From Microcystis aeruginosa NIES-843 (lineage in GTDB: Bacteria; Cyanobacteriota; Cyanobacteriia; Cyanobacteriales; Microcystaceae): a DNA stretch of 32,000 nt. Made by a program: the position numbers and the translations under genes. The stretch lies in the NCBI RefSeq assembly GCF_000010625.1, contig NC_010296.1:1830001-1862000 (forward strand). The letters are read 5' to 3'. The notes under the pieces were generated by a model, which was given only the letters and a program-made list of their open reading frames with translations, searched no databases and had not been told where the DNA came from. Of the stretch, positions 1,305 through 28,338 are shown one piece after another; positions within the stretch are counted from its first letter, which is position 1, and every line of letters starts with the position of its first letter.

Positions 1305-2075
1305 TTAAACCTTTAGCCAAGCAAAAATATCCACTGCTGATATTGACCAACGTTCTAATCCTTTAATCACTGCTAAAGGCTCATTATTTCCTTCAGTTGC
1401 AATATGTACTTTCGGTAATCCTGTTTGAAAAACGGTGACTGACTTGGCTGAAGGATCAATCAACCAACCTAATTCTGTTCCTTGTTGTAAACAGAAAATA
1501 ATCTTTTCCATCCCGGCTCTTCGGTAATTGTTATGCAATGGACGGGGGTTATAAGGGATGGAACCCTTATATAGAAAGGCATTTAGCGATTTTTGTCAAT
1601 TATTTTTGATCTAGAGCGAACTAATCAATTAAGTCTCTTACCAGATAAGGATTTAGTCGATTTATGACCCCCTATCGAACCATACCAAGTAACGAAGAAC
1701 CTCCATCCCTAAGGTAACAGATTGTTCAGGAGACATAATTTCAATAATCCAATCGGGATAACGTAAAAATTGATCGGCCATTTCTCCATCTAGATCTCTT
1801 GGCAAATTCTCCCAACGAATCACCGCAATATCTGGCACAATTGAACGTTCTGCAAAAGTACAACGCAATTCAGGTAGAGCATAAGCTAATTTTTGAGGTT
1901 TAGTCTGTTGATTAATGGCAGAGGCTAACTCAAATTGTAAGATGCTGTGTTTTCCTTTGGCCATAGGTTTTTGAGTGACAATTCCATGATAATATTCCCT
2001 AGCAGGCTTAGTTTCTGGAAGGGCAAGAAATACTTCGAGGGAAAGGGCTTGTTTATCTTCTATTGTGGCAAACAT
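1305..2075 (-). pseudogene. Uma2-family (DUF820) endonuclease split by a 187-bp MITE
   Basis: The N-terminal part is ORF 1662..2075 (PDIAV...IIEIMSPEQS). The C-terminal part is ORF 1305..1538 (MEKIIFCLQQGTELGWLIDP). Removing 1515..1701 plus one 8-bp TSD (195 bp, a multiple of 3) joins the two frames. Confidence 0.8.
1515..1701. mobile_element. MITE-A copy 1 (187 bp, ISL3-like termini)
   Basis: Imperfect terminal inverted repeats are ggctcttcggtaattgttatgcaatggacgggg and ccccctatcgaaccataccaagtaacgaagaacc. A perfect 8-bp target duplication TCCATCCC lies at 1507..1514 and 1702..1709. Homologous copies are at 10695..10881 and 16801..17127. Confidence 0.85.
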
Positions 2076-2151
2076 TGATTGATTTCTCCGCTCTTGAGTT
2101 GTTTTTATTAATTAGCTGGTTATAATTAAATTAAAAATGGATTTTAGGTTC

Positions 2152-2219
2152 GATCCCCCCTGCCCCCCTTGATAAGGGGGGTGCCGATAGGCGGGGGGAT
2201 CCCCCCTTAATAAGGGGGG
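2152..2219. repeat. Cluster of C6/G6 palindromic hairpins between the two Uma2 genes
   Basis: CCCCCCTTgatAAGGGGGG lies at 2163..2181 and CCCCCCTTaatAAGGGGGG at 2201..2219. An outer pair GATCCCCCC (2152..2160) and GGGGGGATC (2193..2201) encloses the first hairpin. Confidence 0.6.
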
Positions 2220-2326
2220 TGTCTGATAATTTTTAACGCCTACCTACTTATAAGCTCCTGACTCCTTACTCTCAGGTAAGTTTTTGATTTTTACCATAAG
2301 TCCAATCTAAAAATACGGGTTTTTCT

Positions 2327-2947
2327 TTAAGCTCTAGCACGAAAAATTTGATTAGCAGTGAGGTTTAACTCTGGAAAAACCCCTGAAATAAGACGTTGAT
2401 CCTGTTTAAATAAATTACCTTGATATTCTCCATCGATTAATTGATAGATAGAAATGGTGGGTTCTTTGGGGCTGCCGATATATCGGGCCGAACCTTTGGC
2501 TAAATAATCGATAATCCAATATTCGGCAATTCCTAATTGTTCGTAGTCGTCGAATTTTTTCAGATAATCATCTCGCCAATTGGAACTGACAATTTCAATA
2601 ATTAATTTAGCTGATGTTGCCAGAGAAATTGAGGAAGCGGTTTCCCAATAGAGATCATTAACTAGATTTTCTCTGTCTAAGACAATAATATCGGGTAGAT
2701 AACCTGTATGGGGGCGAAGGGGTTTTACTGCCGCAGTATTAGGGATAAAATAGGGCAATTGCTGCCGATTTATCTCTAAGAATAGGGTTCCAGAAACAAA
2801 TCCGCCAATTTCTTCGTGTTTTCCGATCGGTCGCATCATGGCCAATAATTTTCCTGCGATTAATTCGTATTGTTGTCCATCATCGGGATATTGATTAATA
2901 TAGTCATCAAAAGTCAACAATTGGGGGATGGTTTGGGTTGTGGTCAT
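2327..2947 (-). CDS. Uma2-family (DUF820) endonuclease, intact
   Basis: 206-aa ORF with YELIAGKL, PDIIVLD, IIEIVSSNWRDDYLKKFDDYEQLGIAEYWIIDY, the PD-(D/E)xK-like Uma2 pattern. Confidence 0.85.
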   Translation of the reverse strand: MTTTQTIPQLLTFDDYINQYPDDGQQYELIAGKLLAMMRPIGKHEEIGGFVSGTLFLEINRQQLPYFIPNTAAVKPLRPHTGYLPDIIVLDRENLVNDLYWETASSISLATSAKLIIEIVSSNWRDDYLKKFDDYEQLGIAEYWIIDYLAKGSARYIGSPKEPTISIYQLIDGEYQGNLFKQDQRLISGVFPELNLTANQIFRARA

Positions 2948-8692: not shown

Positions 8693-8830
8693 CAGGTTTT
8701 TATTTTCTTGACGCTTATCTAACCTAAAAAAAGAGGGTCTGTAGGAAGGCACGGATTCCCATTCTATATATAAGTATCTGTCAAGGGCGGGGATTTGTCA
8801 AGGGGTTTTTTGAAAAAATCTGCCAAAATT
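8693..8830 (-). repeat. Promoter-like leader element, copy B (no DUF29 ORF attached on its downstream side)
   Basis: Near-identical to 9023..9190, 9632..9779, 11264..11431 and 22105..22235. Confidence 0.8.
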
Positions 8831-9022: not shown

Positions 9023-9190
9023 ACCCTATCCTCTTTAGCGCCGGTCAGGTATTAGGTTTTTATTTTTTTGACGCTTATCTAACCTAAAAAAAGAGGGTTT
9101 GCAGGCAGGCACGGATTCCCATTATATATATAAGTATCTGTCAAGGGCGGGGATTTGTCAAGGGTTTTTTTGAAAAAATCTGCCAGAATT
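9023..9190 (-). repeat. Promoter-like leader element, copy C (abuts the stop codon of the intact DUF29 gene)
   Basis: Together with copies B and D and the two DUF29 copies, it forms a tandem array of roughly 2.5 units. Confidence 0.8.
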
Positions 9191-9631
9191 TTAGGGGAGA
9201 AAATCGGAATCGAGGATTTGTTCGGGACTATAGGGGCAGCTTTCGGCAAAGATAGCGGCCGGTAATTGGCTTTTTTGTCGGACTCGCTTCACTGCTTTGG
9301 GGTAAATAACGGCGATTCTGGTTAAAAAATAGTTATAAAGGGTTTTTGACTCCAATAAAAGTTCTAATTCCACCCGAAAGTTACCGATTTCGTCCTGCCA
9401 TCCCCGCGCACATCTTTCTCGTTCCTCCGGCCAGTATTGGTAGAGAAGCAGATGAATGAGCAATTGTAGGAGATAACTATCTACTTTATGTCTCTGTTCA
9501 TTCCCCAGCGCTTCGATTTCTTCTCCGAGATGTTCCCAATCTAATACATCTGTCTGTCTTTGTCGCAGTTGTTTGGCCGTTTCTTCTAACCAAGCAAGAT
9601 AGTCTTGTTCGTATAAGTCTTTATTTGTCAT
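9191..9631 (-). CDS. DUF29 domain protein
   Basis: 146 aa: MTNKDLYEQDYLAWLEETAKQLRQRQTDVLDWEHLGEEIEALGNEQRHKVDSYLLQLLIHLLLYQYWPE..., the classic DUF29 pattern. Confidence 0.9.
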   Translation of the reverse strand: MTNKDLYEQDYLAWLEETAKQLRQRQTDVLDWEHLGEEIEALGNEQRHKVDSYLLQLLIHLLLYQYWPEERERCARGWQDEIGNFRVELELLLESKTLYNYFLTRIAVIYPKAVKRVRQKSQLPAAIFAESCPYSPEQILDSDFLP

Positions 9632-9779
9632 ACCCTATCCTCTTTAGCGCCGGTCAGGTATCGGGTTTTTATTTTTTTGAAGCTTATCTAACCTGAAAAA
9701 AGAGGGTTCGCAGGCAGGCACGGATTCCCATTATATATATAAGTATCTGTCAAGTGCGGGGATTTGTCAAGGGTTTTTT
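9632..9779 (-). promoter_or_regulatory. Promoter-like leader element, copy D (upstream of the intact DUF29 gene)
   Basis: The minus strand reads cccTTGACAaatccccgcacttgacaGATACTtatatatataatgggaatccgtgcctgcctgcgaaccctctttttt...ATG. That is TTGACA, a 17-nt spacer, then GATACT. Confidence 0.55.
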
Positions 9780-9947
9780 ATTGAGATTTTGTTAATCATC
9801 TCGAATACCGTGCATCATGGATTAGTAAACGCTCCGAAAGATTGGCAATATTCCAGTTTTCACCGTTATGTTGAAGAAGGAATTTATGATCAGATGTGAG
9901 GAGCTTCAGAAAAGCTGATCTTTGATAGTGATATTGGTATGGAATAA
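9780..9947 (+). pseudogene. REP-associated tyrosine transposase (RAYT, IS200-like) C-terminal fragment with an internal stop
   Basis: IEILLIISNTVHHGLVNAPKDWQYSSFHRYVEEGIYDQM*GASEKLIFDSDIGME*. The TGA at 9897..9899 is TGG (Trp) in the paralogous copy. Confidence 0.7.
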
Positions 9948-9949
9948 AA

Positions 9950-10026
9950 TGTAGAAGTGAAACCCAAAAAATTAAGGTAAGAAATAAAGGCAATGTTGGG
10001 TTTCGTCACCTCAACCCAACCTACAG
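9950..10026. repeat. REP-like hairpin element (left arm truncated)
   Basis: gtgaaacccaaaaaattaaggtaagaaataaaggcaatgttgggtttcgtcacctcaacccaacctaca. Confidence 0.75.
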
Positions 10027-10060
10027 ATCAGCGATCGCACTACAGGATCAGCGATCACCT

Positions 10061-10404
10061 TTATCGAGAAGAAATAGCTACCTGCACATTCGGAGAAAAA
10101 TTCTCGATTTTTCGAGAAGCATTAAGAATTTCAATCCCGATTACATTACCTGCTTGATCATAAGACCTCTTGCAAAAGTCTTAATTCGATCCTTGTACAG
10201 CAACATTTTTGAAGATTATCAACTACTAATAAATAATTAACTGAAAGTCCCTCCCATTATTGTTTCTATCGTTTGTTTTCGGATTTATGCAAGAGGTCTA
10301 TAGTCAAGAATAACCCCCGGACTGATTGCCTCACTTTCTTCTACGGGTGTGTCATGCCAGGTAATTGTTAAAACGTCAACTTCAGCATCATATTTAGCTT
10401 TCAT
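10061..10404 (-). pseudogene. DUF2283 (antitoxin-like) gene interrupted by MITE-B
   Basis: MKAKYDAEVDVLTITWHDTPVEESEAISPGVILDY runs up to the MITE. The rest (DQAGNVIGIEILNASRKIENFSPNVQVAISSR) resumes after it. The intact paralog is 16331..16534. Confidence 0.85.
10163..10299. mobile_element. MITE-B copy 1 (137 bp)
   Basis: Termini are AGACCTCTTGCA and TGCAAGAGGTCT. A 3-bp TSD ATA lies at 10160..10162 and 10300..10302. The uninterrupted site gatcATAgtcaag is seen at about 16430. Confidence 0.9.
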
Positions 10405-10660
10405 TTGATAGCTGCCTATATTTTCTAAGTTTACTGGTAACATATAGTGTAACAATTTTTTGAGGCTCAACTAAGTCATTAATGTAAATTCTCAGAAGAT
10501 AAGTTTTATTGTTAATGGCGACAAACGTACCTTGATAAACTTTGAGTCCATCTTCTTCTAAAATTTGCTCAGGATTATTGAGGATGTCCTGCAATATTTT
10601 TAAAGAGATTTGGCGTTGAATAATTTTTTCTTCGGCATGGTGACTTAAAATAAAGTTCAC
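10394..10660 (-). CDS. DUF4258 domain protein (toxin-like partner of DUF2283)
   Basis: The 88-aa ORF begins (V/M)NFILSHHAEEKIIQRQISLKILQDILNNPEQ... with a GTG start. It overlaps the DUF2283 start by 11 nt. Confidence 0.75.
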   Translation of the reverse strand: MNFILSHHAEEKIIQRQISLKILQDILNNPEQILEEDGLKVYQGTFVAINNKTYLLRIYINDLVEPQKIVTLYVTSKLRKYRQLSNES

Positions 10661-10694
10661 GAGGATTTCGGAGTATTTTTTTGTAAGGGATTAG

Positions 10695-10881
10695 GGTTCT
10701 TCGGTTTGTCTTATGCAATGGACGGGGTTATAAGGAATGAAACCTTTATAGAGACAGACATTGCCGCAATTTTTGTCAATTGTTGGCGATCTGGAGCGAA
10801 CTAATCAATTAAATCTCTTGCCAGATAAGGATTGAGTCGATTTATGCCCCCCTATCGAACCATACCAAGTCCCGAAGAGCC
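10695..10881. mobile_element. MITE-A copy 2 (187 bp)
   Basis: Termini are ggttcttcgg and ccgaagagcc. The flanking duplication is gGGATTAG (10687..10694) and tGGATTAG (10882..10889), matching at 7 of 8 positions. Confidence 0.8.
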
Positions 10882-11011: not shown

Positions 11012-11100
11012 TGTAGGTTGGGTTGAACGAAGTGAAACCCAAAAAATTAAGGTAAGAAATAAAGGCAATGTTGGGTTTCGTCACCTCAACCCAACCTACA
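11012..11100. repeat. REP-like hairpin element, full length (89 bp)
   Basis: The arms are gtaggttgggttgaacgaagtgaaacccaa and ttgggtttcgtcacctcaacccaacctac, around a 27-nt loop. Track ORF 11068..11256 (MLGFVTSTQPT...) is an artefact of this element. Confidence 0.8.
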
Positions 11101-11114
11101 AGATCGGCGATCGC

Positions 11115-11263
11115 ACTTTATGTCTCTGTTCGTTCCCCAATGCTTCGATTTCTTCTCCGAGATGTTCCCAATCTAATACATCTGTCTGTCTTTGTCGCAG
11201 TTGTTTGGCCGTTTCTTCTAACCAAGCAGGATAGTCTTGTTCGTATAAGTCTTTAGTTGTCAT
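11115..11263 (-). pseudogene. DUF29 5' fragment (about 49 codons) fused to the REP element
   Basis: MTTKDLYEQDYPAWLEETAKQLRQRQTDVLDWEHLGEEIEALGNEQRHKV, after which homology ends at a HIP1 site. Confidence 0.8.
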
Positions 11264-11431
11264 ACCCTATCCTGTTTAGTGCTGGTCAGGTATTAGGTTT
11301 TTATTTTTTTGACGCTTATCTAACCTAAAAAAAGAGGGTTCGCAGGCAGGCACGGATTCCCATTCTACATATAAGTATCTGTCAAGGGCGGGGATTTGTC
11401 AAGGGTTTTTTTGAAAAAATCTACCAGAATT
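11264..11431 (-). repeat. Promoter-like leader element, copy E
   Basis: Same unit as copies B, C, D and G. Confidence 0.8.
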
Positions 11432-12607
11432 TGGCCGGTAGGATAAGAGATTGTTTCACCTTTGCCTGTGAGCTACAATAAGCAGATGAGCAAGAGGATA
11501 GGATTACAGGAGTTTTGACAATGCGGTTACTACGGGTTCAAGTTCCTGACTTTCGAGTGTTAAAGAATATTGATATTAGTTTCGAGAAAGACTTTTTTCC
11601 CCAGATCTTCCCTATCGGTAGTCAAAATGGCGGTGGCAAAAGTACCCTTCTACAATTAATTTTTATCCTGCTTCATTGTTCTGGTGATCCAGAAAAGATA
11701 GAATATGTGGTAAATGTACTCCATCGATGTCAACTAGAAGATGAGTTAGAGCAGAAAACCCTGGCTATTTTTGAAATTCTAACCGACAATCGGGAAGAAG
11801 TAAAACTAGATTTTTTTATTTGCAGAGATGCTTATGTAAAACAATTTGTATCTGATCTTGACGGTCAATTTGTATATGATTTCGGAGATGTTTATATAAA
11901 ACACTTTGTATCTGATATTGACGGTCAATTCCTATATCTTTGTCAAGCCAAAAACCAGAAGAATGAAGAGATATTTTTGTTGTGTAAATTTAGTCAAGCC
12001 ACCCAAGAAGAATGTCAATTATTCATGAAAGAATTATCCTCAAAAATATTTTTAGCTGCACCTTCAACGCAAGTTTTTATCTTTTTACCCAAAGCTACTA
12101 ACAAGAGTCTTTTTCAGATAAATCAAGGGAATCCAGACTCTAGTAACTATTATTTAGCCATGGCAGATATTAAAAAGAAACTTAGCAACTTATTTACCTA
12201 CGATTTTCTGCCAGTTGAGCTATTGATTAATTACTTTATCATGGCTCGTGATCAAGATTTTGCCCAAGCTATAGAAACTGGTGAATATGGAAATAATTAT
12301 CAACTAAGAAGACAAAAATTAAATTCAATTTTATCCGACAAAGAAATTAATTTAGATAAAGATATATCGAGGATTACCTTTAAATTCAAAGGAGACACAA
12401 ACGGAGAAGAATTATATCCAGAGGATTTGAGTCATGGGGAACTGAAGCGATTAAGTATCTATCTGTGGCTAAAGTATCGTAGGATAAAAGATGCGATTGT
12501 CTTGATGGATGAAATTGAGATTGCTCTCCATCCCGACTGGCAATATAAAATTATTGAGGACTTGCAGGAATGGGAACCTAGCAATCAATATATAGCAATT
12601 CTCTGAC

Positions 12608-13159
12608 TTATGAGGTACAGTAGCAACAGTGAGTAAACCAATTGCGAATATCTTTTTGAGTAACTTCTAACATAGCCAATTCAATCCCTTCTATTAAGTC
12701 TTTGTAAGTTCTCGCCTTCAGTTTTCTTAACGTCGCTTTCACTTTTGACCAAAAGTTTTCAATAGGAGAGAATTCGGGAGAATAAGGAGGTAAATAGATG
12801 AGTCTAGCTTTTTCTTGTTCGATTATTTCTCTGACCATTTCTCCGAGATGAATCTTGGCGTTATCCATGATCAGACAGTCTCCTTCTTTAATTTTTGGCA
12901 GCACTTCCTTGAGAATAAATCCTTCAAATGTTACCGCATCCACTGCACCGTATATGTTGACTGATGCGACAACTTTTTCTAAGCTTATAGCACTAATTAT
13001 TGAAATATTTCTCCCTCTTTTTTGTGGTTTTCTTCCCCGAGCTCTTCGGCCAATTAAGGCTCTAGCATAGAGTCTCAAAAGGGCTAAATTTACCCCCGAT
13101 TCATCGATGAAAATTAGTTTTGATGCCTCAATTTCCCGAACTTCTGACCAGTATTCCAC
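12608..13159 (-). CDS. IS630 transposase orfB (DDE part), needs a -1 shift from orfA
   Basis: ...EYWSEVREIEASKLIFIDESG...IMDNAKIHLG...YLPPYSPEFSPIENFW. Upstream of its first Met, the same frame reads KKKTLHAAEKESDRVQQKRV back to the A9 run. Confidence 0.8.
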   Translation of the reverse strand: MEYWSEVREIEASKLIFIDESGVNLALLRLYARALIGRRARGRKPQKRGRNISIISAISLEKVVASVNIYGAVDAVTFEGFILKEVLPKIKEGDCLIMDNAKIHLGEMVREIIEQEKARLIYLPPYSPEFSPIENFWSKVKATLRKLKARTYKDLIEGIELAMLEVTQKDIRNWFTHCCYCTS

Positions 13160-13557
13160 TCTTTTTTGCTGTACCCTGTCACTTTCTTTTTCCGCCGCGT
13201 GTAGTGTTTTTTTTTGAAACTGTAATTGAGTTTTTGCGTAAGCCGCCCCAGGGTGGCTCTACTGACTTTCACCTGTGTCTTTTCATACAGTAAGTCCGAT
13301 AATTCTTCGAGAGTTGCATCATTGTTAGCTTCGATGATTTCTATTAAAATTATCAGTTGTTCACTATTTAACTTGGTTGGCGGACTTCCCCCTTGCGGAC
13401 GAGGACGGATATCTCCTGTTTCTTTATGTTGCTTCAATAACTTCTGAATAAAGCTTTTAGCCACGTCAAATCTCTGGGCTAGTCCTCGAATGGAAATTTT
13501 TTCTTTCTTCCAGACATCGATAATTTTTTGGCGAAAATCTACGGAATAGGGTCTCAT
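13114..13557 (-). CDS. IS630 transposase orfA (HTH part)
   Basis: MRPYSVDFRQKIIDVWKKEKISIRGLAQRFDVAKSFIQKLLKQHKETGDIRPRPQGG.... The frame changes at an A9 run (T9 on the plus strand, 13207..13215). Confidence 0.8.
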   Translation of the reverse strand: MRPYSVDFRQKIIDVWKKEKISIRGLAQRFDVAKSFIQKLLKQHKETGDIRPRPQGGSPPTKLNSEQLIILIEIIEANNDATLEELSDLLYEKTQVKVSRATLGRLTQKLNYSFKKKHYTRRKKKVTGYSKKEWNTGQKFGKLRHQN

Positions 13558-14066
13558 AGGAAGCTGGTAAGTTCTATTATTTGTCTATTTGCTTTCCATT
13601 GTACCTCATAGCTCCAAGAATTGCTATATCTTAGCCACTCATTCCTATGAACTCTGTCAAGCTTTAACTCCCGCTCATGTTAAAGAGATAGAACCAAAAC
13701 TATTGAAATAAAGATGGAGAAACTAACCCATGAGTCTTAGGGAAACAGAACTTTTAGAACATTGTCAATTTATTCTGGCAAACCGTCAAATTCGTAATAA
13801 ATTTGTCATCCTCTGTGAAGGGGAAATCAAAAAAACTGCCGGCAGGTTATCTCCTCAATCCTATCGAGCTATGGAAGATTTTCCCGATGCTAATTTTTAT
13901 AAAGCCTGTGTTCCTAGGGATTGGAGACAACAGATACCGACTTTTTTTAACTGTGGTGATAGAAATGATGTTTTAAATACTTACTTTAATCTTTTGCGTT
14001 TGCATGAAGATAACCCAGAAGCTTCTTATTTAAATCCCCAGCAACTGTTCGCTATCGTCGATTTAG

Positions 14067-15311
14067 GGCTCTTCTAGGTTCTGTGTGAGCATGGTATAAT
14101 AGTAACACAGAACAGGAGGTGGGTTATGTGGATAAATTTTGATCAACTCCTCGATTTACCAAATGTAACAGTGGTCAATTATCAAAAAATTGCTCAGACA
14201 ATTTTCCTAAAGCTTGCTCTTTTAAATGAAACAATTGAATGTCCGAATTGCCATCAAACCTTAGACAGAATCAATCAGACAGAGTATAATCTAGTCAGAG
14301 ACTTGTCAATATTAGGTAATCCAGTATATTTAGAAGTACCACGCCGTCAGTTTCATTGTCAAAAGTGCCAAAAGTATATCAGCGAAAGACTGAGTTTTAT
14401 GAGATTAAGACAGCATCATACAATTCGCTATGAATCGATGATTTATGAGAGAGTAAAAAATTGTAGTATCGAAGAAATAAGTCGAGAAGAAGGGTTGGGA
14501 TGGGAAGAAGTTGAGTTAATATTTAATCACTGTGCTAAAGAACTAGAAAAGGAAGAGTGGGAAGCACCAGAACGAATAAGCTTAGATGAATTTAGTAACT
14601 TAAAAGGACATAAAGATTTCATAACAACGGTCGTAGATATGGACAAGAAAATTTTACTAGATGTGATTAAAGGACATAAACAAGAAGAATTAATGGAAGC
14701 CTTAAAGGCACGGCCAGTCGCAGTTCGGGAGAAGGTGAAAGAAGTGAGCGTCGATATGTGGTCAGGATTTACAGCAGTGATCAAGGAATTATTTCCCAAT
14801 GCTAAAATCATCTATGACCGTTTTCATGTAATGGCTATCATCAATGACGAGCTTAATAACTTGAGAAAGTTAATGGGGGTGCATGAAAAAGGATTACCTC
14901 ATTTATTATGGAAGAATAAAGAGGACTTAAAGGACGAGCAAAAACAACAACTAGAAGTTATCTTAAAAGAACATCCCTGCTTGGGAATAGCCTGGGAGAT
15001 GAAAGAAGAAATTAGACAAATTTATCAAAGTAGTAAAACGTTCAGAGGTGCTGAGAGAAAATTGGAAAAATGGATAAGAATAGGCGGGATATTATATGAA
15101 AGTAGTGCCAGCATGATCCAGAAGCATTTGCAGGGTATTTGTAATTACTTTGAAAATCATACAACCAACGGATTAATTGAGGGAATGAATACCAAAATAA
15201 AGCTTATTAAAAGAATGAGTTATGGATTTACCAATTTTGAACATCTTCGACTTAAGCTGTTTGCTTGCTTTAATTCATAACAAAAATTAACACACGAAAA
15301 CCAGAAGAGCC
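14067..15311 (+). mobile_element. ISL3-family insertion sequence (about 1.24 kb)
   Basis: Inverted repeats are ggctcttctaggttctgtgtg and cacacgaaaaccagaagagcc. The target duplication (c)gatttag lies at 14059..14066 and 15311..15318, so there is a 1-bp ambiguity in the right boundary. Confidence 0.85.
14126..15280 (+). CDS. ISL3-family transposase
   Basis: 384 aa with an N-terminal zinc-finger pattern CPNCH...CQKC, followed by the DDE_Tnp_ISL3-like region (VSVDMWSGF...IIYDRFHV...GLIEGMNTKIK). Confidence 0.85.
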   Translation: MWINFDQLLDLPNVTVVNYQKIAQTIFLKLALLNETIECPNCHQTLDRINQTEYNLVRDLSILGNPVYLEVPRRQFHCQKCQKYISERLSFMRLRQHHTIRYESMIYERVKNCSIEEISREEGLGWEEVELIFNHCAKELEKEEWEAPERISLDEFSNLKGHKDFITTVVDMDKKILLDVIKGHKQEELMEALKARPVAVREKVKEVSVDMWSGFTAVIKELFPNAKIIYDRFHVMAIINDELNNLRKLMGVHEKGLPHLLWKNKEDLKDEQKQQLEVILKEHPCLGIAWEMKEEIRQIYQSSKTFRGAERKLEKWIRIGGILYESSASMIQKHLQGICNYFENHTTNGLIEGMNTKIKLIKRMSYGFTNFEHLRLKLFACFNS

Positions 15312-15957
15312 GATTTAGACTTACAAAATAAACGTTTAGATGATTCCTATCCATTTAAGGATTTAGAGCAAATTTTTGAGGACTTATATAAAAAATCACT
15401 GATTAAAGTCAATCGGGTTGGACAGCATAGAATTTGGGTGACGGGATTGATTCATAAAGAGTGCTATTTTATTTTTCCCGATACTCATATTCAATCAATT
15501 CTTAGCGAACATTCGGCTGTTTATCAAAATTCCGCTGCTAGGCTAGAAAATATTTATCTTGATATGGCAGATAAAATTAAGGATGATGCCGATTTAAAAA
15601 ATAATTTTTCCAGAGTTAAAGGGAGAATTTCTCATTGTCAAAACCTAGAACTATCGGAAGTGGAGAAATTACAGCTATCTTGGCAAAAACAATATCAAGT
15701 TAGCCACGACAATAGCCAATCGGAATTAGTGCTGGCTCTGTTGACTATCAAAAAAGCGAAGCAATATTGGTTACAAGTTGAACCTCCAGAGGACCATACA
15801 TCACCCCCAGAAAGATATAGAGAACAACTGGCACTACAAATAGGAAGATTTTATGCTCACAATAGCGATAATCCAAGCTGCCATATTTCCCATCTCCTAA
15901 AACTGCTGAAGCTAGAACTCAACCCCAGGGAGCAGGAATAAATTTAATCGCATTATT

Positions 15958-16048
15958 TGACCTAAAAAAAGAGGGTTTGTAGGAAGGTACGGATTCCCAT
16001 TCTATATATAAGTATCTGTCAAGGGCGGGGATTTGTCAAGGGTTTTTT
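15958..16048 (-). repeat. Promoter-like leader element, copy F (5'-UTR side truncated)
   Basis: cctaaaaaaagagggtttgtaggaaggtacggattcccattctatatataagtatctgtcaagggcggggatttgtcaaggg. Confidence 0.8.
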
Positions 16049-16216
16049 ATTGAGATTTTGTTAATCATCTCGAATACCGTGCATCATGGATTAGTAAACG
16101 CTCCGAAAGATTGGCAATATTCCAGTTTTCACCGTTATGTTGAAGAAGGAATTTATGATCAGATGTGGGGAGCTTCAGAAAAGCTGATCTTTGATAGTGA
16201 TATTGGTATGGAATAA
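16049..16216 (+). pseudogene. RAYT C-terminal fragment (no internal stop in this copy)
   Basis: ...HHGLVNAPKDWQYSSFHRYVEEGIYDQMWGASEKLIFDSDIGME*. Only about 55 codons remain and there is no N-terminal catalytic part. Confidence 0.7.
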
Positions 16217-16218
16217 AA

Positions 16219-16294
16219 TGTAGAAGTGAAACCCAAAAAATTCAGGTAAGAAATAAAGGTAATGTTGGGTTTCGTCACCTCAACCCAACTTACA
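16219..16294. repeat. REP-like hairpin element
   Basis: Paralog of 9950..10026. Track ORF 16262..16501 (MLGFVTSTQLT...) is an artefact of this element. Confidence 0.75.
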
Positions 16295-16330
16295 AGATCA
16301 GCGATCGCACTACAGGATCAGCGATCACCT

Positions 16331-16534
16331 TTATCGAGAAGAAATAGCTACCTGCACATTCGGAGAAAAATTCTCGATTTTTCGAGAAGCATTAAGAATT
16401 TCAATCCCGATTACATTACCTGCTTGATCATAGTCAAGAATAACCCCCGGACTGATTGCCTCACTTTCTTCTACGGGTGTGTCATGCCAGGTAATTGTTA
16501 AAACGTCAACTTCAGCATCATATTTAGCTTTCAT
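16331..16534 (-). CDS. DUF2283 domain protein (antitoxin-like), intact copy
   Basis: MKAKYDAEVDVLTITWHDTPVEESEAISPGVILDYDQAGNVIGIEILNASRKI.... Confidence 0.8.
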   Translation of the reverse strand: MKAKYDAEVDVLTITWHDTPVEESEAISPGVILDYDQAGNVIGIEILNASRKIENFSPNVQVAISSR

Positions 16535-16790
16535 TTGATAGCTGCCTATATTTTCTAAGTTTACTGGTTACATATAGTGTAACAATTTTTTGAGGCTCAA
16601 CTAAGTCATTAATGTAAATTCTCAGAAGATAAGTTTTATTGTTAATGGCGACAAACGTACCTTGATAAACTTTGAGTCCATCTTCTTCTAAAATTTGCTC
16701 AGGATTATTAAGGATGTCCTGCAATATTTTTAAAGAGATTTGGCGTTGAATAATTTTTTCTTCGGCATGGTGACTTAAAATAAAGTTCAC
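16524..16790 (-). CDS. DUF4258 domain protein (toxin-like), second copy
   Basis: Identical protein to 10394..10660. I place the start at GTG 16790. The track extension to 16853 reads into MITE-A. Confidence 0.7.
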   Translation of the reverse strand: MNFILSHHAEEKIIQRQISLKILQDILNNPEQILEEDGLKVYQGTFVAINNKTYLLRIYINDLVEPQKIVTLYVTSKLRKYRQLSNES

Positions 16791-16800
16791 GAGGATTTCG

Positions 16801-17127
16801 GGTTCTTCGGTTTGTCTTATACAATGGACGGGGTTATAAGAGACCTCTTGCAAAAGTCTTAAGTCGATCCTTGTACAGCAACATTTTTGAAGATTATCAA
16901 CTACTAATAAATAATTAACTGAAAGTCCCTCCTATTATTGTTTCTATCGTTTGTTTTCGGATTTATGCAAGAGGTCTAAGGAATGAAACCTTTATAGAGA
17001 CAGACATTGCCGCAATTTTTGTCAATTGTTGGCGATCTGGAGCGAACTAATCAATTAAATCTCTTGCCAGATAAGGATTGAGTCGATTTATGCCCCCCTA
17101 TCGAACCATACCAAGTCCGGAAGAGCC
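16801..17127. mobile_element. MITE-A copy 3, carrying a nested MITE-B
   Basis: Same termini as copies 1 and 2. No matching target duplication is present (left flank aggatttcg, right flank ataaatttc). Confidence 0.8.
16841..16977. mobile_element. MITE-B copy 2 (137 bp), nested inside MITE-A
   Basis: Termini are AGACCTCTTGCA and TGCAAGAGGTCT. A 3-bp TSD AAG lies at 16838..16840 and 16978..16980. The empty site ggttatAAGgaatg is seen in MITE-A copy 2. Confidence 0.9.
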
Positions 17128-17659: not shown

Positions 17660-17893
17660 ATGCTTAATTCTATTAACGCATTATTTGACGGAAAGGTCTT
17701 TCATCCAGAGCAACCCGTTACATTGAAGGCTAATACTCGTGTCCGCATTATTGTTGATAACTTATCGGATGAAAATAATGAACTCACTTCTTTTTTAGAG
17801 ACAGCAGAATCATTACAACTAGACGGCCCCTCTGATTGGTCAGAAAATCTAGATAAATATTTATATGGTGAAGAAAAAGAGCATGAACCCTGA
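17660..17893 (+). CDS. Antitoxin-family protein (DUF104/AF2212-like VapB-type partner of the PIN toxin)
   Basis: MLNSINALFDGKVFHPEQPVTLKANTRVRIIV...LQLDGPSDWSENLDKYLYG. Its stop overlaps the PIN gene start. Confidence 0.65.
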   Translation: MLNSINALFDGKVFHPEQPVTLKANTRVRIIVDNLSDENNELTSFLETAESLQLDGPSDWSENLDKYLYGEEKEHEP

Positions 17894-18162
17894 GAAATTT
17901 CTCGATACAAGTTATGCGATCGCTTTATCTTCATCTACGGACGATTATCATCATAAAGCACTTGCCATTGCCCAACAATTAAAAACTTCAAAAACACCTT
18001 TAGTTACAACCAGAGCCATTATTTTAGAGATTGGCAATGCTTTATCTAAACAAAAATATCGCTCTAAGTCAATTAAATTATTGTCCTCATTAGAAAAGGA
18101 CAGAACAGTGACAGTTATTCCCTTATCGGAAATTCTTTATCAAAAAGCTTTTCAACTATATT

Positions 18163-19380
18163 AGACCTCTTGCATAATTTTTTTATGGTATAATATAAGG
18201 TTTTGCTTTTTTCTCAATTCTTAGATTGAAGTGGAAAAAAGAATAAAATGTGATCTTAGGTCAGGAAATCATCTATAATTTTGCTATGTTTATTAGCAAA
18301 ATTATGGATTATCAAAACTTATCAGATGAACAATTCAAACGCCGTTTCGGTGTGTACAAACAAACATATAGAAAGATGGTAGAATCAGTAAAAAGTGTTG
18401 AAGCCGACTCTAATTCACCATCTAAAAGGGGACCGAAACCTAAACTATCTATAGAAGAACAAGTTTTAGTAACGTTAGAATATTGGCGAGAATATAGAAC
18501 ATATTTTCACATTGGTACAAGCTGGGAACTATCAGAATCAACTATATGTCGGATTGTAAATAAGACGGAAAAAATGCTTTTACAATCGGGAAACTTCCGT
18601 TTAAAAGGAAAAAAAGCTTTACTCAATCAAGCAGAGATACCGGTCATAACGGTAATGGATGTAACGGAAACTCCCATTGAACGCCCCCAAAAGAAACAGA
18701 AAGATTTTTTTTCGGGTAAAAGAGGTTATCATACTTTAAAATCCCAATTAGTAGCTGATCAAAATACAGAGGAAATTATCTGTGTCTTCTGTGGGAAAGG
18801 TAGAGGTCATGATTTTAGTTTATTTAAAAAAAGTCGAGTTCGTTTTCATCCTTTAACTACCAGCATAGAAGACAGTGGTTATCAGGGAATAGCTGCATAC
18901 CATAGTAATAGTTATACACCGAAAAAGAAATCGAAAAATAGAAAATTAACAGAGTTAGAAAAAGAGTATAACAAGGCTTTAGCTAAAGAAAGGATTATCA
19001 TTGAACATATAAATAGGAAACTCAAAATCTTTAAAATCTTATCCTGTAAATATCGGAATCGTCGTCGAAGATATAGTTTAAGAGTTAACTTGTTGGCGGC
19101 TATTTATAACTGTGAGTTAGGGATAGGTATAGCAGCTTCTTAAAAGTTGCCTAAAGATTAATCAAGTCAAGGAGAATTTATTCTCAATTATAAAAATTGA
19201 GATAGTTTGTGCCGCTTAAATAAAGAGGTTTTGATAACCAAATTAAAGCAGCTCTAAAGAGTTTTGAGTTAAAAGTTAAACTTCAAGTTTTCATTCAGGA
19301 CGAATGTACTGATTAACTAATTTTTTGGGGAAAATTAGTTAACCCATCATTATAACATATAATTAATTTGCAAGAGTTCT
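18163..19380 (+). mobile_element. IS5-superfamily (DDE_Tnp_4/Harbinger-like) insertion sequence, 1218 bp
   Basis: Termini are agacctcttgca and tgcaagagttct. A 3-bp TSD ATT lies at 18160..18162 and 19381..19383. The termini are shared with MITE-B. Confidence 0.9.
18304..19143 (+). CDS. DDE_Tnp_4-type transposase
   Basis: MDYQNLSDEQFKRRFGVYKQTYRKMV... (HTH_Tnp_4-like) is followed by VMDVTETPIERP...GKRGYHTLKSQLV...EDSGYQG...ERIIIEHINRKLKIFKIL. The start is chosen at the third in-frame start codon (18304) of track ORF 18250..19143, whose first codon is a GTG. Confidence 0.8.
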   Translation: MDYQNLSDEQFKRRFGVYKQTYRKMVESVKSVEADSNSPSKRGPKPKLSIEEQVLVTLEYWREYRTYFHIGTSWELSESTICRIVNKTEKMLLQSGNFRLKGKKALLNQAEIPVITVMDVTETPIERPQKKQKDFFSGKRGYHTLKSQLVADQNTEEIICVFCGKGRGHDFSLFKKSRVRFHPLTTSIEDSGYQGIAAYHSNSYTPKKKSKNRKLTELEKEYNKALAKERIIIEHINRKLKIFKILSCKYRNRRRRYSLRVNLLAAIYNCELGIGIAAS

Positions 19381-28251: not shown

Positions 28252-28338
28252 CGGAGAGAGAGGGATTCGAACCCTCGTTAAAGTTACCCCTAAACAGCAT
28301 TTCCAGTGCTGCGCCTTCAACCGCTCGGCCATCTCTCC
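28252..28338 (-). tRNA. tRNA-Ser (anticodon GGA), 87 nt, long variable arm, no encoded CCA
   Basis: The reverse complement is GGAGAGATGGCCGAGCGGTTGAAGGCGCAGCACTGGAAATGCTGTTTAGGGGTAACTTTAACGAGGGTTCGAATCCCTCTCTCTCCG. The acceptor stem is GGAGAGA/TCTCTCC. The anticodon stem is CAGCA/TGCTG with loop CTGGAAA. The T arm is GAGGG-TTCGAAT-CCCTC. Confidence 0.9.

What the first reader, a model, noticed from the sequence alone, without database searches (positions are those of the whole stretch)
11521..15941. Two-gene ABC-ATPase plus Toprim-like candidate defence module (PARIS/AbiL/split-OLD architecture), with both genes knocked out by different IS elements
Deleting the IS630 copy (12593..13626 plus one TA) restores a 384-aa ORF with Walker A GSQNGGGKST, LSHGELKRL, Walker B IVLMDEIE and H-loop LATHS. 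Deleting the ISL3 copy (14067..15311 plus one TSD copy) restores a 319-aa ORF that starts 18 nt downstream. That ORF carries VILCEGE and AIVDLD, the Glu plus DxD arrangement of Toprim domains. Such domains are partnered with AAA_21-type ATPases in OLD nucleases, PARIS (AriA/AriB, DUF4435), AbiL (RloB) and DUF4276 pairs. The ATPase insert domain and the last ~200 aa of the second protein match nothing I recognise, so this may be an undescribed variant of that architecture. The locus is visibly AT-richer than the flanking core genes and sits in an IS/TA-rich island. Two independent insertions in two adjacent genes are compatible with selection against an active (toxic or abortive-infection) system, or simply with high IS load.
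Basis: partly seen in the sequence, partly recalled or inferred. Interest (0 to 1): 0.75.

Follow-up and report, generated by a model that had tools for sequence, protein, structure and literature searches.

The report
Broken PARIS-like ATPase–nuclease gene pair
Two adjacent Microcystis genes, each split by a different jumping gene, once encoded an ATPase and a probable nuclease distantly resembling the PARIS anti-phage system; the pair belongs to an unannotated, cyanobacteria-only family that current defence-gene catalogues do not recognise.

Summary
Removing an IS630-family element (12593-13628) restores a 384-aa ABC ATPase. Removing an ISL3 element (14067-15311 plus a 7-bp duplication) restores a 319-aa ORF starting 18 nt downstream. 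Other Microcystis contigs carry the uninterrupted sites.

The ATPase is AAA_21/AAA_15 type, and its closest solved relative by sequence is AriA of PARIS. The second protein matches nothing in Pfam, PADLOC or NCBIfam. Several weak signals nevertheless point to the AriB/DUF4435 Toprim nuclease:
- 11 of 74 relatives hit DUF4435 (best E 1.5e-4).
- 3 of 74 hit PADLOC AriB.
- A pLDDT-95 model has AriB as its top PDB match (probability 0.75).
- Five acidic residues, conserved in at least 99% of members, lie in the AriB order.

Profile-profile comparison stayed non-significant.

The pair is adjacent in 79 of 79 testable genome loci. It is confined to cyanobacteria and absent from the plasmid and viral collections. 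In filamentous cyanobacteria it usually lies among housekeeping genes, not in defence islands. The ATPase carries a hypervariable, deletable insert. A third independent IS insertion occurs in another Microcystis sample.

Verdict: a new, divergent variant of the PARIS/OLD-like architecture, inactivated here. A defence role is inferred, not shown.

The parts
11313..11412 (+). Upstream copy of a ~100-nt direct repeat that brackets the module
   Evidence: Five + strand copies of the 52-nt core lie at 8753, 9113, 9722, 11354 and 15991, where 0 are expected by chance. They are aligned. The same repeat flanks the module in L008 and L009.
11521..12592 (+). 5' part of the ABC ATPase gene (codons 1-357): Walker A, variable insert, ABC signature, Walker B
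   Evidence: Pfam AAA_21 6e-16 and AAA_15 1.6e-15. PADLOC PtuA 5e-21 and AriA 9e-19. PDB AriA 2e-9. The ATG at 11521 matches the conserved N-terminus M[KRH]LLRVQVPDFR of homologues.
11820..11937 (+). Two tandem 60-nt (20-aa) copies inside the ATPase variable insert
   Evidence: family D10 (86% identity). The region aligns to the hypervariable insert of homologues.
12593..13628 (-). IS630-family insertion (1034 bp plus a duplicated TA); the junction is ambiguous within TATAT
   Evidence: Inverted repeats (I1). ORFs 13114-13557 (HTH_32) and 12608-13159 (DDE_3). The element is absent from L008, L009, L004 and L090.
13629..13711 (+). 3' part of the ABC ATPase gene (H-loop LATHS to the stop codon)
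   Evidence: The C-terminus ...ATHSYELCQALTPAHVKEIEPKLLK is conserved in all homologues.
13730..14066 (+). 5' part of the partner gene (codons 1-112): CEG (E30), PDANFY (D53), first Asp of DLD (D111)
14067..15311 (+). ISL3-family insertion; 7-bp target duplication GATTTAG at 14060-14066 and 15312-15318
   Evidence: Transposase 14126-15280 carries DDE_Tnp_ISL3 (8e-60), Zn_ribbon_ISL3 and HTH_Tnp_ISL3. The site is empty in L008, L009, L004 and L090.
15319..15941 (+). 3' part of the partner gene (codons 113-319): D113, HKE(E160)xYF, helical C-terminal domain with R215, K260, W263
15953..16048 (+). Downstream copy of the ~100-nt direct repeat, starting 12 nt after the partner gene's stop codon

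Best explanation
The module is a two-gene operon of the OLD-like/PARIS type, now a double pseudogene.

Gene 1 encodes a Rad50/SMC-like ABC ATPase of 384 aa here and 357-509 aa in relatives. Its two nucleotide-binding lobes are highly conserved. Between them lies a hypervariable helical insert that is sometimes deleted.

Gene 2 encodes a ~315-aa protein. Its N-terminal half is a very divergent DUF4435/AriB-like Toprim metal-dependent nuclease domain. The proposed acidic residues are E30, D53, D111, D113 and E160, with a 15-20-residue loop inserted between the first Glu and Asp. Its C-terminal half is helical and specific to this family.

By analogy with PARIS, the ATPase oligomer would hold the nuclease inactive. 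A phage- or stress-derived trigger sensed through the variable insert would release it. The nuclease would then cut tRNA or another nucleic acid and arrest growth (abortive infection).

What is shown: the ORF repair, the ATPase family, strict gene pairing, restriction to cyanobacteria, and the conservation pattern. What is inferred: the Toprim fold (moderate support), nuclease activity, the sequestration-and-release mechanism, and the antiviral role.

In this genome the system was recently inactivated by two independent IS insertions. The repaired ORFs are otherwise intact, with nucleotide identity of 93-98% to uninterrupted alleles.
For: ORF repair and empty sites.

ATPase family:
- Pfam AAA_21 and AAA_15.
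- PADLOC PtuA and AriA, including a full-length match to the 373-position AriA model.
- The best PDB sequence hits are AriA 8ux9/8v45 at 2e-9, then PtuA and GajA.

Architecture precedent: the best plasmid homologue of the ATPase (27.5% identity over 88% of its length) is followed directly by a 321-aa DUF4435 protein. A Klebsiella ColE1-type plasmid carries the same pair.

Partner protein:
- 11 of 74 relatives hit Pfam DUF4435 (best 1.5e-4); the next most frequent family is hit by only 4.
- Those matches place the DUF4435 N-terminal acidic motif and DxD on residues 48-115.
- PADLOC AriB is hit by 3 of 74 (5.8e-5) and AbiLii by 2 of 74.
- The AlphaFold model has pLDDT 94.9 and pTM 0.92, with a beta-alpha-beta-alpha-beta-alpha-beta N-terminal half.
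- Its top hit among 350,542 PDB chains is AriB 8v46_D (E 0.013, probability 0.75); the next hit has E 0.16 and probability 0.08.
- In 179 full-length members the only acidic residues conserved at 97% or more are E30, D53, D111, D113 and E160. This matches in number and order AriB E26, D30, D88, E90 and E122 (PMC11464382).

Pairing: an ATPase homologue lies directly upstream on the same strand, mostly with a gap of -11 to +18 nt, in 79 of 80 genome loci. The remaining locus is cut by a contig end.

Sensor-like variability: the ATPase insert varies by about 150 aa even between genomes whose partner proteins are 88-91% identical.

Dispensability or cost: three independent IS insertions (IS630, ISL3, IS200/IS605) occur in near-identical Microcystis alleles.
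Against: - The window's own partner protein has no hit at E<=1 in Pfam, PADLOC or NCBIfam.
- The DUF4435 matches of its relatives are below Pfam's gathering score (22 bits against 27).
- hhalign of the family profile against two DUF4435 alignments gives P 0.07-0.27.
- PDB profile searches find nothing.
- The Foldseek match to AriB has a global TM of only 0.29-0.30.
- The first, lower-confidence model (pLDDT 80.7) gave no PDB match.
- Spatial clustering of the five acidic residues could not be checked.
- Context in other cyanobacteria is housekeeping. An 85-91% conserved aminotransferase lies upstream in 44 of 82 loci across Nostoc, Microcoleus, Tychonema and Coleofasciculus.
- Neighbours include RNA polymerase beta', LeuRS, desaturases and radical SAM enzymes, with only scattered generic PADLOC hits.
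- The family is absent from 72,556 plasmids and 2.9 million viral contigs, unlike PARIS, which is often carried by mobile elements.
Confidence: 0.62

Rival explanations
1. It is a vertically inherited, non-defence ATPase-nuclease pair. The two proteins would perform a cellular nucleic-acid task, such as repair or RNA processing under stress, in cyanobacteria. Microcystis can lose it without harm.
For: - Synteny with a highly conserved aminotransferase holds across orders.
- Pair divergence is congruent with taxonomy: 93% within Nostoc, 75-91% within Microcoleus, 59-67% between orders.
- Neighbours are housekeeping genes.
- There are no plasmid or viral copies.
- Both ATPase lobes are strongly conserved.
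Against: - Only 160 of 185,579 species genomes matched the scan pattern, although all 80 retained loci carry cyanobacterial titles except two probably mis-binned MAG contigs (Pedobacter, Caldilinea).
- In Microcystis the pair sits in a TA/IS-rich, low-GC island.
- It is repeatedly disrupted by IS elements.
- The ATPase insert is hypervariable.
- Every characterised relative of the ATPase (AriA, PtuA, GajA) is an immune protein.
Confidence: 0.17
2. The ATPase is a Septu/PARIS-type sensor, but the partner is an effector with a new fold unrelated to Toprim. The CEG/DxD motifs and the weak DUF4435 and AriB hits would then be convergent or chance.
For: - Profile-profile comparisons are not significant.
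- PDB profile searches find nothing.
- The Foldseek TM is 0.29 and E 0.013.
- AAA_15/21 ATPases are known to pair with many effector types (PMC11464382).
Against: - Independent libraries and methods all point to the same small set of Toprim partners: DUF4435, AriB, AbiLii and RloB-like.
- Bona fide DUF4435 proteins also fail to find AriB by profile search, so non-significant profile results are expected in this superfamily.
- Five conserved acidic residues lie in the Toprim order on an alternating beta/alpha scaffold.
Confidence: 0.15
3. The two IS insertions have no selective meaning. They simply reflect the very high IS load of Microcystis in a dispensable island.
For: - The window carries a third IS (DDE_Tnp_4, 18250-19143), segmental duplications and gene fragments.
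- With three IS elements in an island of about 11 kb, finding two in a 2.1-kb target is not statistically unusual (own estimate, p about 0.1).
Against: A third independent insertion, of IS200/IS605 type, hits the partner gene at another site in a 98.6-100% identical allele from another sample. This suggests recurrent loss. This rival concerns only the cause of inactivation and is compatible with the best explanation.
Confidence: 0.5

Closest known systems
PARIS (AriA ABC ATPase + AriB DUF4435/Toprim nuclease; class 4 OLD-like)
   Same: - Two co-directional, tightly spaced genes.
- AAA_15/21 ATPase with inserts between the nucleotide-binding lobes; the ATPase's best PDB sequence hit is AriA.
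- A partner of about 300-320 aa whose best PDB fold hit is AriB.
- Five conserved acidic residues in the same order as AriB E26, D30, D88, E90 and E122.
- A variable presumed sensor region in the ATPase.
   Different: - The partner is not detected by the PADLOC AriB or Pfam DUF4435 models.
- A 15-20-residue loop separates the first Glu from the first Asp.
- The invariant CEG, PDANFY, FFNCG, HKE[AS]YF, R215, K260 and W263 motifs are specific to this family.
- The ATPase is 357-509 aa, and the insert can be missing entirely.
- The family is chromosomal, found only in cyanobacteria, often in conserved housekeeping synteny, and never seen on plasmid or viral contigs.
Short ATP-binding protein + DUF4435 pairs on small plasmids (Acinetobacter pAhaem11616c WP_160124382/WP_160124381; Klebsiella ColE1-type WP_085843020/WP_064147929)
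   Same: - Closest plasmid relative of the ATPase (27.5% identity over 88% of its length).
- Same gene order, near-zero spacer and very similar sizes: 336 + 321 aa and 325 + 325 aa, against 384 + 319 aa here.
   Different: - Their partner proteins are recognised as DUF4435 by Pfam.
- Profile comparison with the cyanobacterial family is not significant.
- They are plasmid-borne in Proteobacteria.
- They are themselves uncharacterised.
AbiL (AbiLi ATPase + AbiLii RloB-type Toprim) and DUF4276 pairs
   Same: - Split ABC ATPase plus small Toprim-like partner.
- 2 of 74 relatives weakly hit PADLOC AbiLii.
- An RloB-like protein is the top BFVD fold hit.
- The CEGE motif resembles the RloB N-terminal motif (from memory).
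   Different: - No Pfam RloB or DUF4276 hit among the 25 families most often matched by the 74 members.
- The hits are weaker than those to DUF4435 and AriB.
Septu / retron Ec78 PtuA
   Same: PtuA models give the ATPase its best PADLOC and NCBIfam scores (5e-21 and 4.9e-17).
   Different: No HNH PtuB partner, reverse transcriptase or ncRNA is present. The partner here is not HNH.
P2 Old / Gabija GajA (class 1 and 2 OLD nucleases)
   Same: An ABC ATPase combined with a Toprim nuclease. GajA is a weak PDB hit of the ATPase.
   Different: In those proteins the two domains are fused in one polypeptide. Here they are two genes, and there is no Toprim_OLD Pfam hit.

Membership tests
PARIS (AriA/AriB) | AAA_15/AAA_21 ABC ATPase with Walker A, ABC signature, Walker B and H-loop | tested here: met
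   Pfam AAA_21 at 59.8 bits (cut-off 27) and AAA_15 at 58.1 bits (cut-off 32.1). PADLOC AriA models at 9e-19, 3e-17 and 8e-13, the last aligning full length. PDB AriA at 2e-9. The motifs can be read directly in the repaired ORF.
PARIS (AriA/AriB) | Adjacent partner gene carrying the DUF4435 (PF14491) Toprim domain | tested here: inconclusive
   The window's protein has no hit at E<=1. Of 74 relatives, 11 hit DUF4435 below the gathering score (best 22 bits against 27, E 1.5e-4). Foldseek's top PDB hit is AriB at probability 0.75 and TM 0.29. hhalign is not significant.
PARIS (AriA/AriB) | Detection of the partner by dedicated AriB models (PADLOC) | tested here: not met
   No PADLOC hit for the window's protein at E<=1. 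Only 3 of 74 relatives hit AriB model PDLC02983, best 5.8e-5.
PARIS (AriA/AriB) | Toprim two-metal acidic set (AriB E26, D30, D88, E90, E122) | tested here: inconclusive
   Exactly five acidic residues are conserved at 97% or more in 179 members: E30, D53, D111, D113 and E160. They lie in the same order on an alternating beta/alpha scaffold. Their clustering in three dimensions could not be inspected.
PARIS (AriA/AriB) | Trigger-dependent release of the nuclease, tRNA cleavage and phage protection | not testable with these tools
   This needs experiments.
OLD family class 1/2 (P2 Old, GajA) | ATPase and Toprim domains in one polypeptide | tested here: not met
   There are two ORFs separated by 18 nt here, mostly by -11 to +18 nt in 79 other loci.
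Septu (PtuA/PtuB) | HNH nuclease PtuB next to PtuA | tested here: not met
   The partner has no HNH hit in Pfam or PADLOC.
AbiL (AbiLi/AbiLii) | Partner with the RloB (PF13707) domain | tested here: not met
   RloB is not among the 25 families most often matched by the 74 members at E<=10. Only 2 of 74 weakly hit PADLOC AbiLii at 1.6e-3.
IS630 family | DDE_3 transposase with an N-terminal HTH, terminal inverted repeats and a TA target duplication | tested here: met
   (I1). The empty site is seen in L008.
ISL3 family | DDE_Tnp_ISL3 transposase, inverted repeats beginning GGCTCTT, and a 7-8-bp target duplication | tested here: met
   The empty site is seen in L008.

The most novel reading that the evidence does not exclude
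This may be a distinct, ancient branch of the OLD-like ABC-ATPase/Toprim systems. It would have been retained vertically at a conserved chromosomal locus, next to an aminotransferase, since before Nostocales and Oscillatoriales diverged. Its Toprim first motif is split by an inserted loop, its C-terminal domain is new, and the ATPase sensor insert is repeatedly remodelled or deleted. That would make it either an unusually long-lived 'domesticated' abortive-infection system or an ATPase-gated nuclease recruited to a cellular, non-immune role in cyanobacteria.
Probability: 0.25. Interest if true: 0.65.

Novelty: new variant of a known kind. Interest (0 to 1): 0.45.

Why it matters
Cyanobacterial immunity is poorly charted, and bloom-forming Microcystis is under heavy phage pressure. 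This family comprises 554 clusters at 90% identity and was found in 160 species genomes. All named members are annotated 'hypothetical'. Pfam, NCBIfam and PADLOC do not recognise the effector, so defence censuses of cyanobacteria miss the system.

If it is a PARIS-like system, it extends that architecture to a new phylum-specific clade with a very divergent Toprim domain. It also offers natural long-insert and short-insert ATPase variants for studying trigger sensing.

Its conserved housekeeping synteny and absence from mobile elements contrast with classical PARIS. That raises the question of how long an abortive-infection module can be kept vertically. The recurrent IS knock-outs in Microcystis hint at a fitness cost.

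Tried and rejected
- Direct family scans of the partner protein in Pfam, PADLOC and NCBIfam gave nothing.
- PDB sequence-profile searches with the 28- and 74-sequence alignments gave only noise.
- The first AlphaFold model (28 sequences, pLDDT 80.7, poor around residues 20-50) gave no PDB fold match. Its top BFVD hit was only an RloB-like protein at E 0.085.
- hhalign and hmmsearch against DUF4435 alignments built from the plasmid partners and 120 relatives were not significant, even after removing the 33-49 loop.
- As a control, the DUF4435 alignment itself does not find AriB in the PDB by profile search. These negatives therefore carry little weight.
- My first guess at which members carry the DUF4435 signal (those with EGxTD) was wrong.
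- The deep profile search of 1.84 billion representatives found only 165 proteins, with no bridge to other families among the 150 best matches listed.
- Plasmid and viral-contig searches for the partner were empty.
- I looked for tandem repeats to explain the long ATPase form in M. wesenbergii and found none. The extra roughly 110 aa is a unique helical insert.
- Rfam found only a tRNA at 28252-28338.
- I rejected the TTG start at 11515 in favour of the ATG at 11521, which matches the homologues' N-termini.

Full report
**1. Observation**

The ORF list and sequence show a + strand ORF from 11515/11521 that ends at 12606, inside an element with 40-nt imperfect terminal inverted repeats (12587-12626 and 13593-13632, I1). 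A second + strand ORF (13730-14077) ends inside another element bounded by GGCTCTTCTAGGTTCTGTGTG and its near-perfect inverse.

Joining 11521-12592 to 13629-13711 gives a 384-aa protein. Joining 13730-14066 to 15319-15941 gives a 319-aa protein. The spacer between them is 18 nt.

The first element encodes HTH_32 and DDE_3 ORFs on the minus strand and has a TA target, so it belongs to the IS630 family. The second encodes a complete ISL3 transposase and is flanked by a 7-bp duplication, GATTTAG.

Uninterrupted copies of the locus, with exactly the predicted junctions, occur in:
- Microcystis aeruginosa W13-11 (L008),
- M. wesenbergii (L009),
- several Logan contigs (L004-L007).

These are 93-98% identical in nucleotide sequence. 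An intact 319-aa allele (P0001, 97% identical) represents a cluster of 430 sequences. The window therefore comes from a Microcystis genome and the knock-outs are recent.

The module (GC 0.34-0.365) lies in a low-GC stretch from 10 to 22 kb (GC 0.32-0.38, against 0.41-0.46 in the flanks). That stretch contains DUF29, DUF4258/DUF2283, PIN and DUF2442 genes, another IS and segmental duplications. It sits between an alpha/beta hydrolase gene and the znuA/znuC-mfd region.

**2. Gene 1**

The repaired protein passes Pfam's thresholds for AAA_21 and AAA_15. In PADLOC it scores best on PtuA (5e-21) and AriA (9e-19), including a full-length alignment to a 373-position AriA model. Its closest solved relatives by sequence are AriA of PARIS (8ux9/8v45, 2e-9), then PtuA and GajA.

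An alignment of 14 orthologues shows an N lobe (residues 1-115) and a C lobe (the last ~240 residues) that are very well conserved. Between them is an insert ranging from almost nothing (357 aa, Rivularia) to about 150 helical residues (489-509 aa in Nostoc, Anabaena azotica and M. vaginatus).

Both forms occur within single genera. Microcoleus has 392-aa and 505-aa versions. Microcystis has 384-aa and 493-aa versions. In related genomes the ATPase diverges faster than its partner. For example, between a Microcoleus and a Tychonema genome the ATPase is 70% identical, the partner 88% and the neighbouring aminotransferase 97%.

In the window's allele the remnant of the insert contains a 60-nt tandem duplication (D10).

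**3. Gene 2**

The protein has no hit at E<=1 in Pfam, PADLOC or NCBIfam. It nevertheless belongs to a well-defined family:
- 554 clusters at E<=1e-3 in the 5.8-billion-protein set. All named members are 'hypothetical protein' from cyanobacteria and none carries a Pfam domain.
- Only 165 representatives among 1.84 billion proteins in a full HMMER profile search, with no bridge to other families among the 150 best matches listed.

Evidence on its fold comes from several independent but individually weak sources.

(a) Pfam scan of relatives. I scanned 74 diverse members one by one. DUF4435 (PF14491) was hit by 11 of them, with a best E of 1.5e-4. The next most frequent family was hit by only 4. 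The matches align DUF4435 profile positions 7-64 to residues 48-115, covering the PDANFY and DLD motifs. They score 22 bits against a gathering score of 27.

(b) PADLOC scan of the same 74. The recurrent hits were AriB (3 members, best 5.8e-5) and AbiLii (2 members). One member hit ATPase-Toprim_I-B.

(c) Structure prediction. An AlphaFold model built on the 74-sequence alignment is confident (pLDDT 94.9, pTM 0.92). Its N-terminal half alternates strands and helices:
- beta 26-29, ending in CEG;
- beta 71-74, FFNCG;
- beta 106-110, followed by DLD;
- beta 151-153, followed by HKE.

Its C-terminal half is helical.

(d) Fold search. The top Foldseek hit among 350,542 PDB chains is AriB (8v46_D; E 0.013, probability 0.75, TM 0.29-0.30). 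The second hit has E 0.16 and probability 0.08. The earlier, poorer model had an RloB-like phage protein as its top BFVD hit.

(e) Conserved acidic residues. In 179 full-length members, the only acidic residues conserved at 97% or more are E30, D53, D111, D113 and E160. AriB's Toprim metal site is formed by E26, D30, D88, E90 and E122 (PMC11464382), which is the same number in the same order.

My reading is that the DUF4435 motif 'hhhEGxxDxxF[YW]' has been split in this family by a variable, low-confidence loop (residues 32-50). This leaves CEG (E30) on one side and PDANFY (D53) on the other. This reading is an inference.

Against the assignment:
- hhalign between the family and two DUF4435 alignments was not significant (P 0.07-0.27).
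- hmmsearch was not significant in either direction.
- PDB profile searches found nothing.

As a control, a genuine DUF4435 alignment also fails to find AriB in the PDB. Sequence profiles are evidently weak across this superfamily, so these negatives count for little.

**4. Pairing and precedent**

In 79 of 80 genome loci retrieved from 185,579 species genomes, an ATPase orthologue (E about 1e-110 to 1e-130) lies immediately upstream on the same strand, mostly with a gap of -11 to +18 nt. The single exception is truncated by a contig end. Rivularia PCC 7116 and Coleofasciculus show the same arrangement in annotated form.

The best plasmid relative of the ATPase is on a 6.9-kb Acinetobacter plasmid. 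It is followed by a 321-aa protein annotated as DUF4435. A Klebsiella ColE1-type plasmid carries an equivalent pair. The architecture 'short AAA_21 ATPase plus a DUF4435 protein of about 320 aa' therefore exists elsewhere with the same sizes and order.

**5. Distribution and context**

The genome scan matched 160 species genomes. All 80 retained loci carry cyanobacterial titles except two probably mis-binned MAG contigs. The taxa include Microcystis, Nostoc, Anabaena, Dolichospermum, Rivularia, Microcoleus, Tychonema, Argonema, Coleofasciculus, Leptolyngbyaceae and Pseudanabaenales.

The partner protein is absent from 72,556 plasmids and from 2.9 million viral contigs.

Flanking genes are mostly housekeeping. 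A 411-aa class I/II aminotransferase lies upstream on the same strand in 44 of 82 loci, spanning Nostoc, Nostocales HT-58-2, Coleofasciculus, Microcoleus and Tychonema. It is 85-91% identical between orders.

In 31 dereplicated loci, the commonest families among the two genes on either side are aminotransferase, methyltransferases, Uma2, fatty-acid desaturase, radical SAM, RNA polymerase beta', SBP_bac_5 and LeuRS. PADLOC hits among these neighbours are few and mostly generic.

Divergence of the pair follows taxonomy. This pattern looks like long vertical retention at one locus with many losses. Microcystis is the exception, because there the pair sits in the TA/IS-rich island.

**6. Inactivation**

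The window carries two IS insertions. In addition, a metagenomic Microcystis contig (L090) is 98.6-100% identical in nucleotide sequence and has both of those sites empty. It carries a different insertion after codon 139 of the partner gene, encoding an IS200/IS605-type Y1 transposase.

That makes three independent IS hits in a 2.1-kb module across near-identical alleles. This fits either a cost of carrying the system or simply Microcystis's IS load. Within the window alone the clustering is not statistically remarkable.

**7. Interpretation**

The most economical reading is a very divergent, cyanobacteria-specific member of the OLD-like 'ABC ATPase plus Toprim' systems, closest to PARIS (class 4, split genes; PMC10568477; PMC11464382).

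By analogy, the ATPase oligomer would sequester the nuclease and release it when its variable insert senses a trigger, causing abortive infection.

- Shown: the ATPase family, strict pairing, the conservation pattern and the IS knock-outs.
- Moderately supported: the Toprim/DUF4435 relationship.
- Inferred only: nuclease activity, the mechanism and the antiviral role.

It cannot be filed as PARIS proper, because the AriB and DUF4435 models do not detect the partner and the genomic lifestyle differs.

I rate it a new variant of a known kind. Interest is moderate: it fills a blind spot in cyanobacterial defence annotation, and its vertical, housekeeping-like context is unusual. The architecture itself is already a recognised theme.

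Noticed in passing
window 8753-8804, 9113-9164, 9722-9773, 11354-11405, 15991-16042 (repeat core); full unit about 100 nt: A ~100-nt repeat (...CCTAAAAAAAGAGGGTT.GCAGGCAGGCACGGATTCCCATTCTATATATAAGTATCTGTCAAGGGCGGGGATTTGTCAAGGGTTTTTT) occurs five times, always on the + strand, where 0 are expected by chance. It punctuates the island like cassette boundaries. Two copies bracket the ATPase-nuclease module directly, and the same repeat flanks the module in L008 and L009. No Rfam family matches it. Its function (recombination site, terminator or MITE remnant) is unknown.
   Followed up: partly
L008 4503-4718, compared with window 15834-16048: In M. aeruginosa W13-11, the last ~115 nt of the partner gene plus the repeat also occur upstream of the module (96% identity). 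This looks like the junction of a former tandem duplication or a circular cassette (3' end of gene 2 - repeat - gene 1). It hints that the module moves or duplicates by recombination between the flanking repeats.
   Followed up: no
window 9483-10881 compared with 11115-11432 and 15953-17127: Large segmental duplications at 95-100% identity surround the module. They include two copies of a DUF4258/DUF2283 pair (10394-10660 and 16331-16853) and a 5' fragment of a DUF29 gene (11096-11263) beside a complete one (9191-9631).
   Followed up: partly
L090 1025-1556 (ENA metagenome ERZ27268111), equivalent to window position 15402/15403: A third, independent insertion into the partner gene, after codon 139. 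It encodes an IS200/IS605-type Y1 transposase (HUH motif HVHFLV). The allele is 98.6-100% identical to the window and lacks both of the window's IS elements.
   Followed up: yes
L009 4849-5239 compared with window 11869-11932; orthologues in L001-L087: The ATPase exists in long (about 490-509 aa) and short (357-401 aa) forms, differing by a helical insert between the two nucleotide-binding lobes. Both forms occur within Microcystis and within Microcoleus. The window's short form carries a 20-aa tandem duplication in place of the insert.
   Followed up: yes
L020, L072 (partner ORF 290 and 268 aa); L028, L060 (ATPase ORF 112 and 239 aa): A few orthologous loci in Nostoc, Microcoleus and an uncultured-bacterium MAG contig (L028) appear truncated or frameshifted in one of the two genes. 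This suggests occasional decay outside Microcystis as well.
   Followed up: no
window 12608-13557 (-): The IS630-family transposase is split into two overlapping ORFs (HTH_32, 147 aa; DDE_3, 183 aa). This is either a programmed frameshift, as in some IS630 members, or a defective copy.
   Followed up: no
window 1662-2947 (-), 17865-18164 (+), 18250-19143 (+), 28252-28338 (-): Other conflict or mobile features in the window: two Uma2-family genes, a PIN-domain gene and a DDE_Tnp_4 transposase. A tRNA gene lies between mfd and a glycosyltransferase gene.
   Followed up: no
L065 (Pedobacter MAG, 2.1-kb contig); L083 (Caldilinea MAG): The only non-cyanobacterial records carrying the pair are short or MAG contigs. 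The L065 and L083 partner-protein matches are 48% and 46% identical to the Microcystis (query) protein, within the range of the cyanobacterial loci. This is most likely binning contamination rather than true presence outside the phylum.
   Followed up: no
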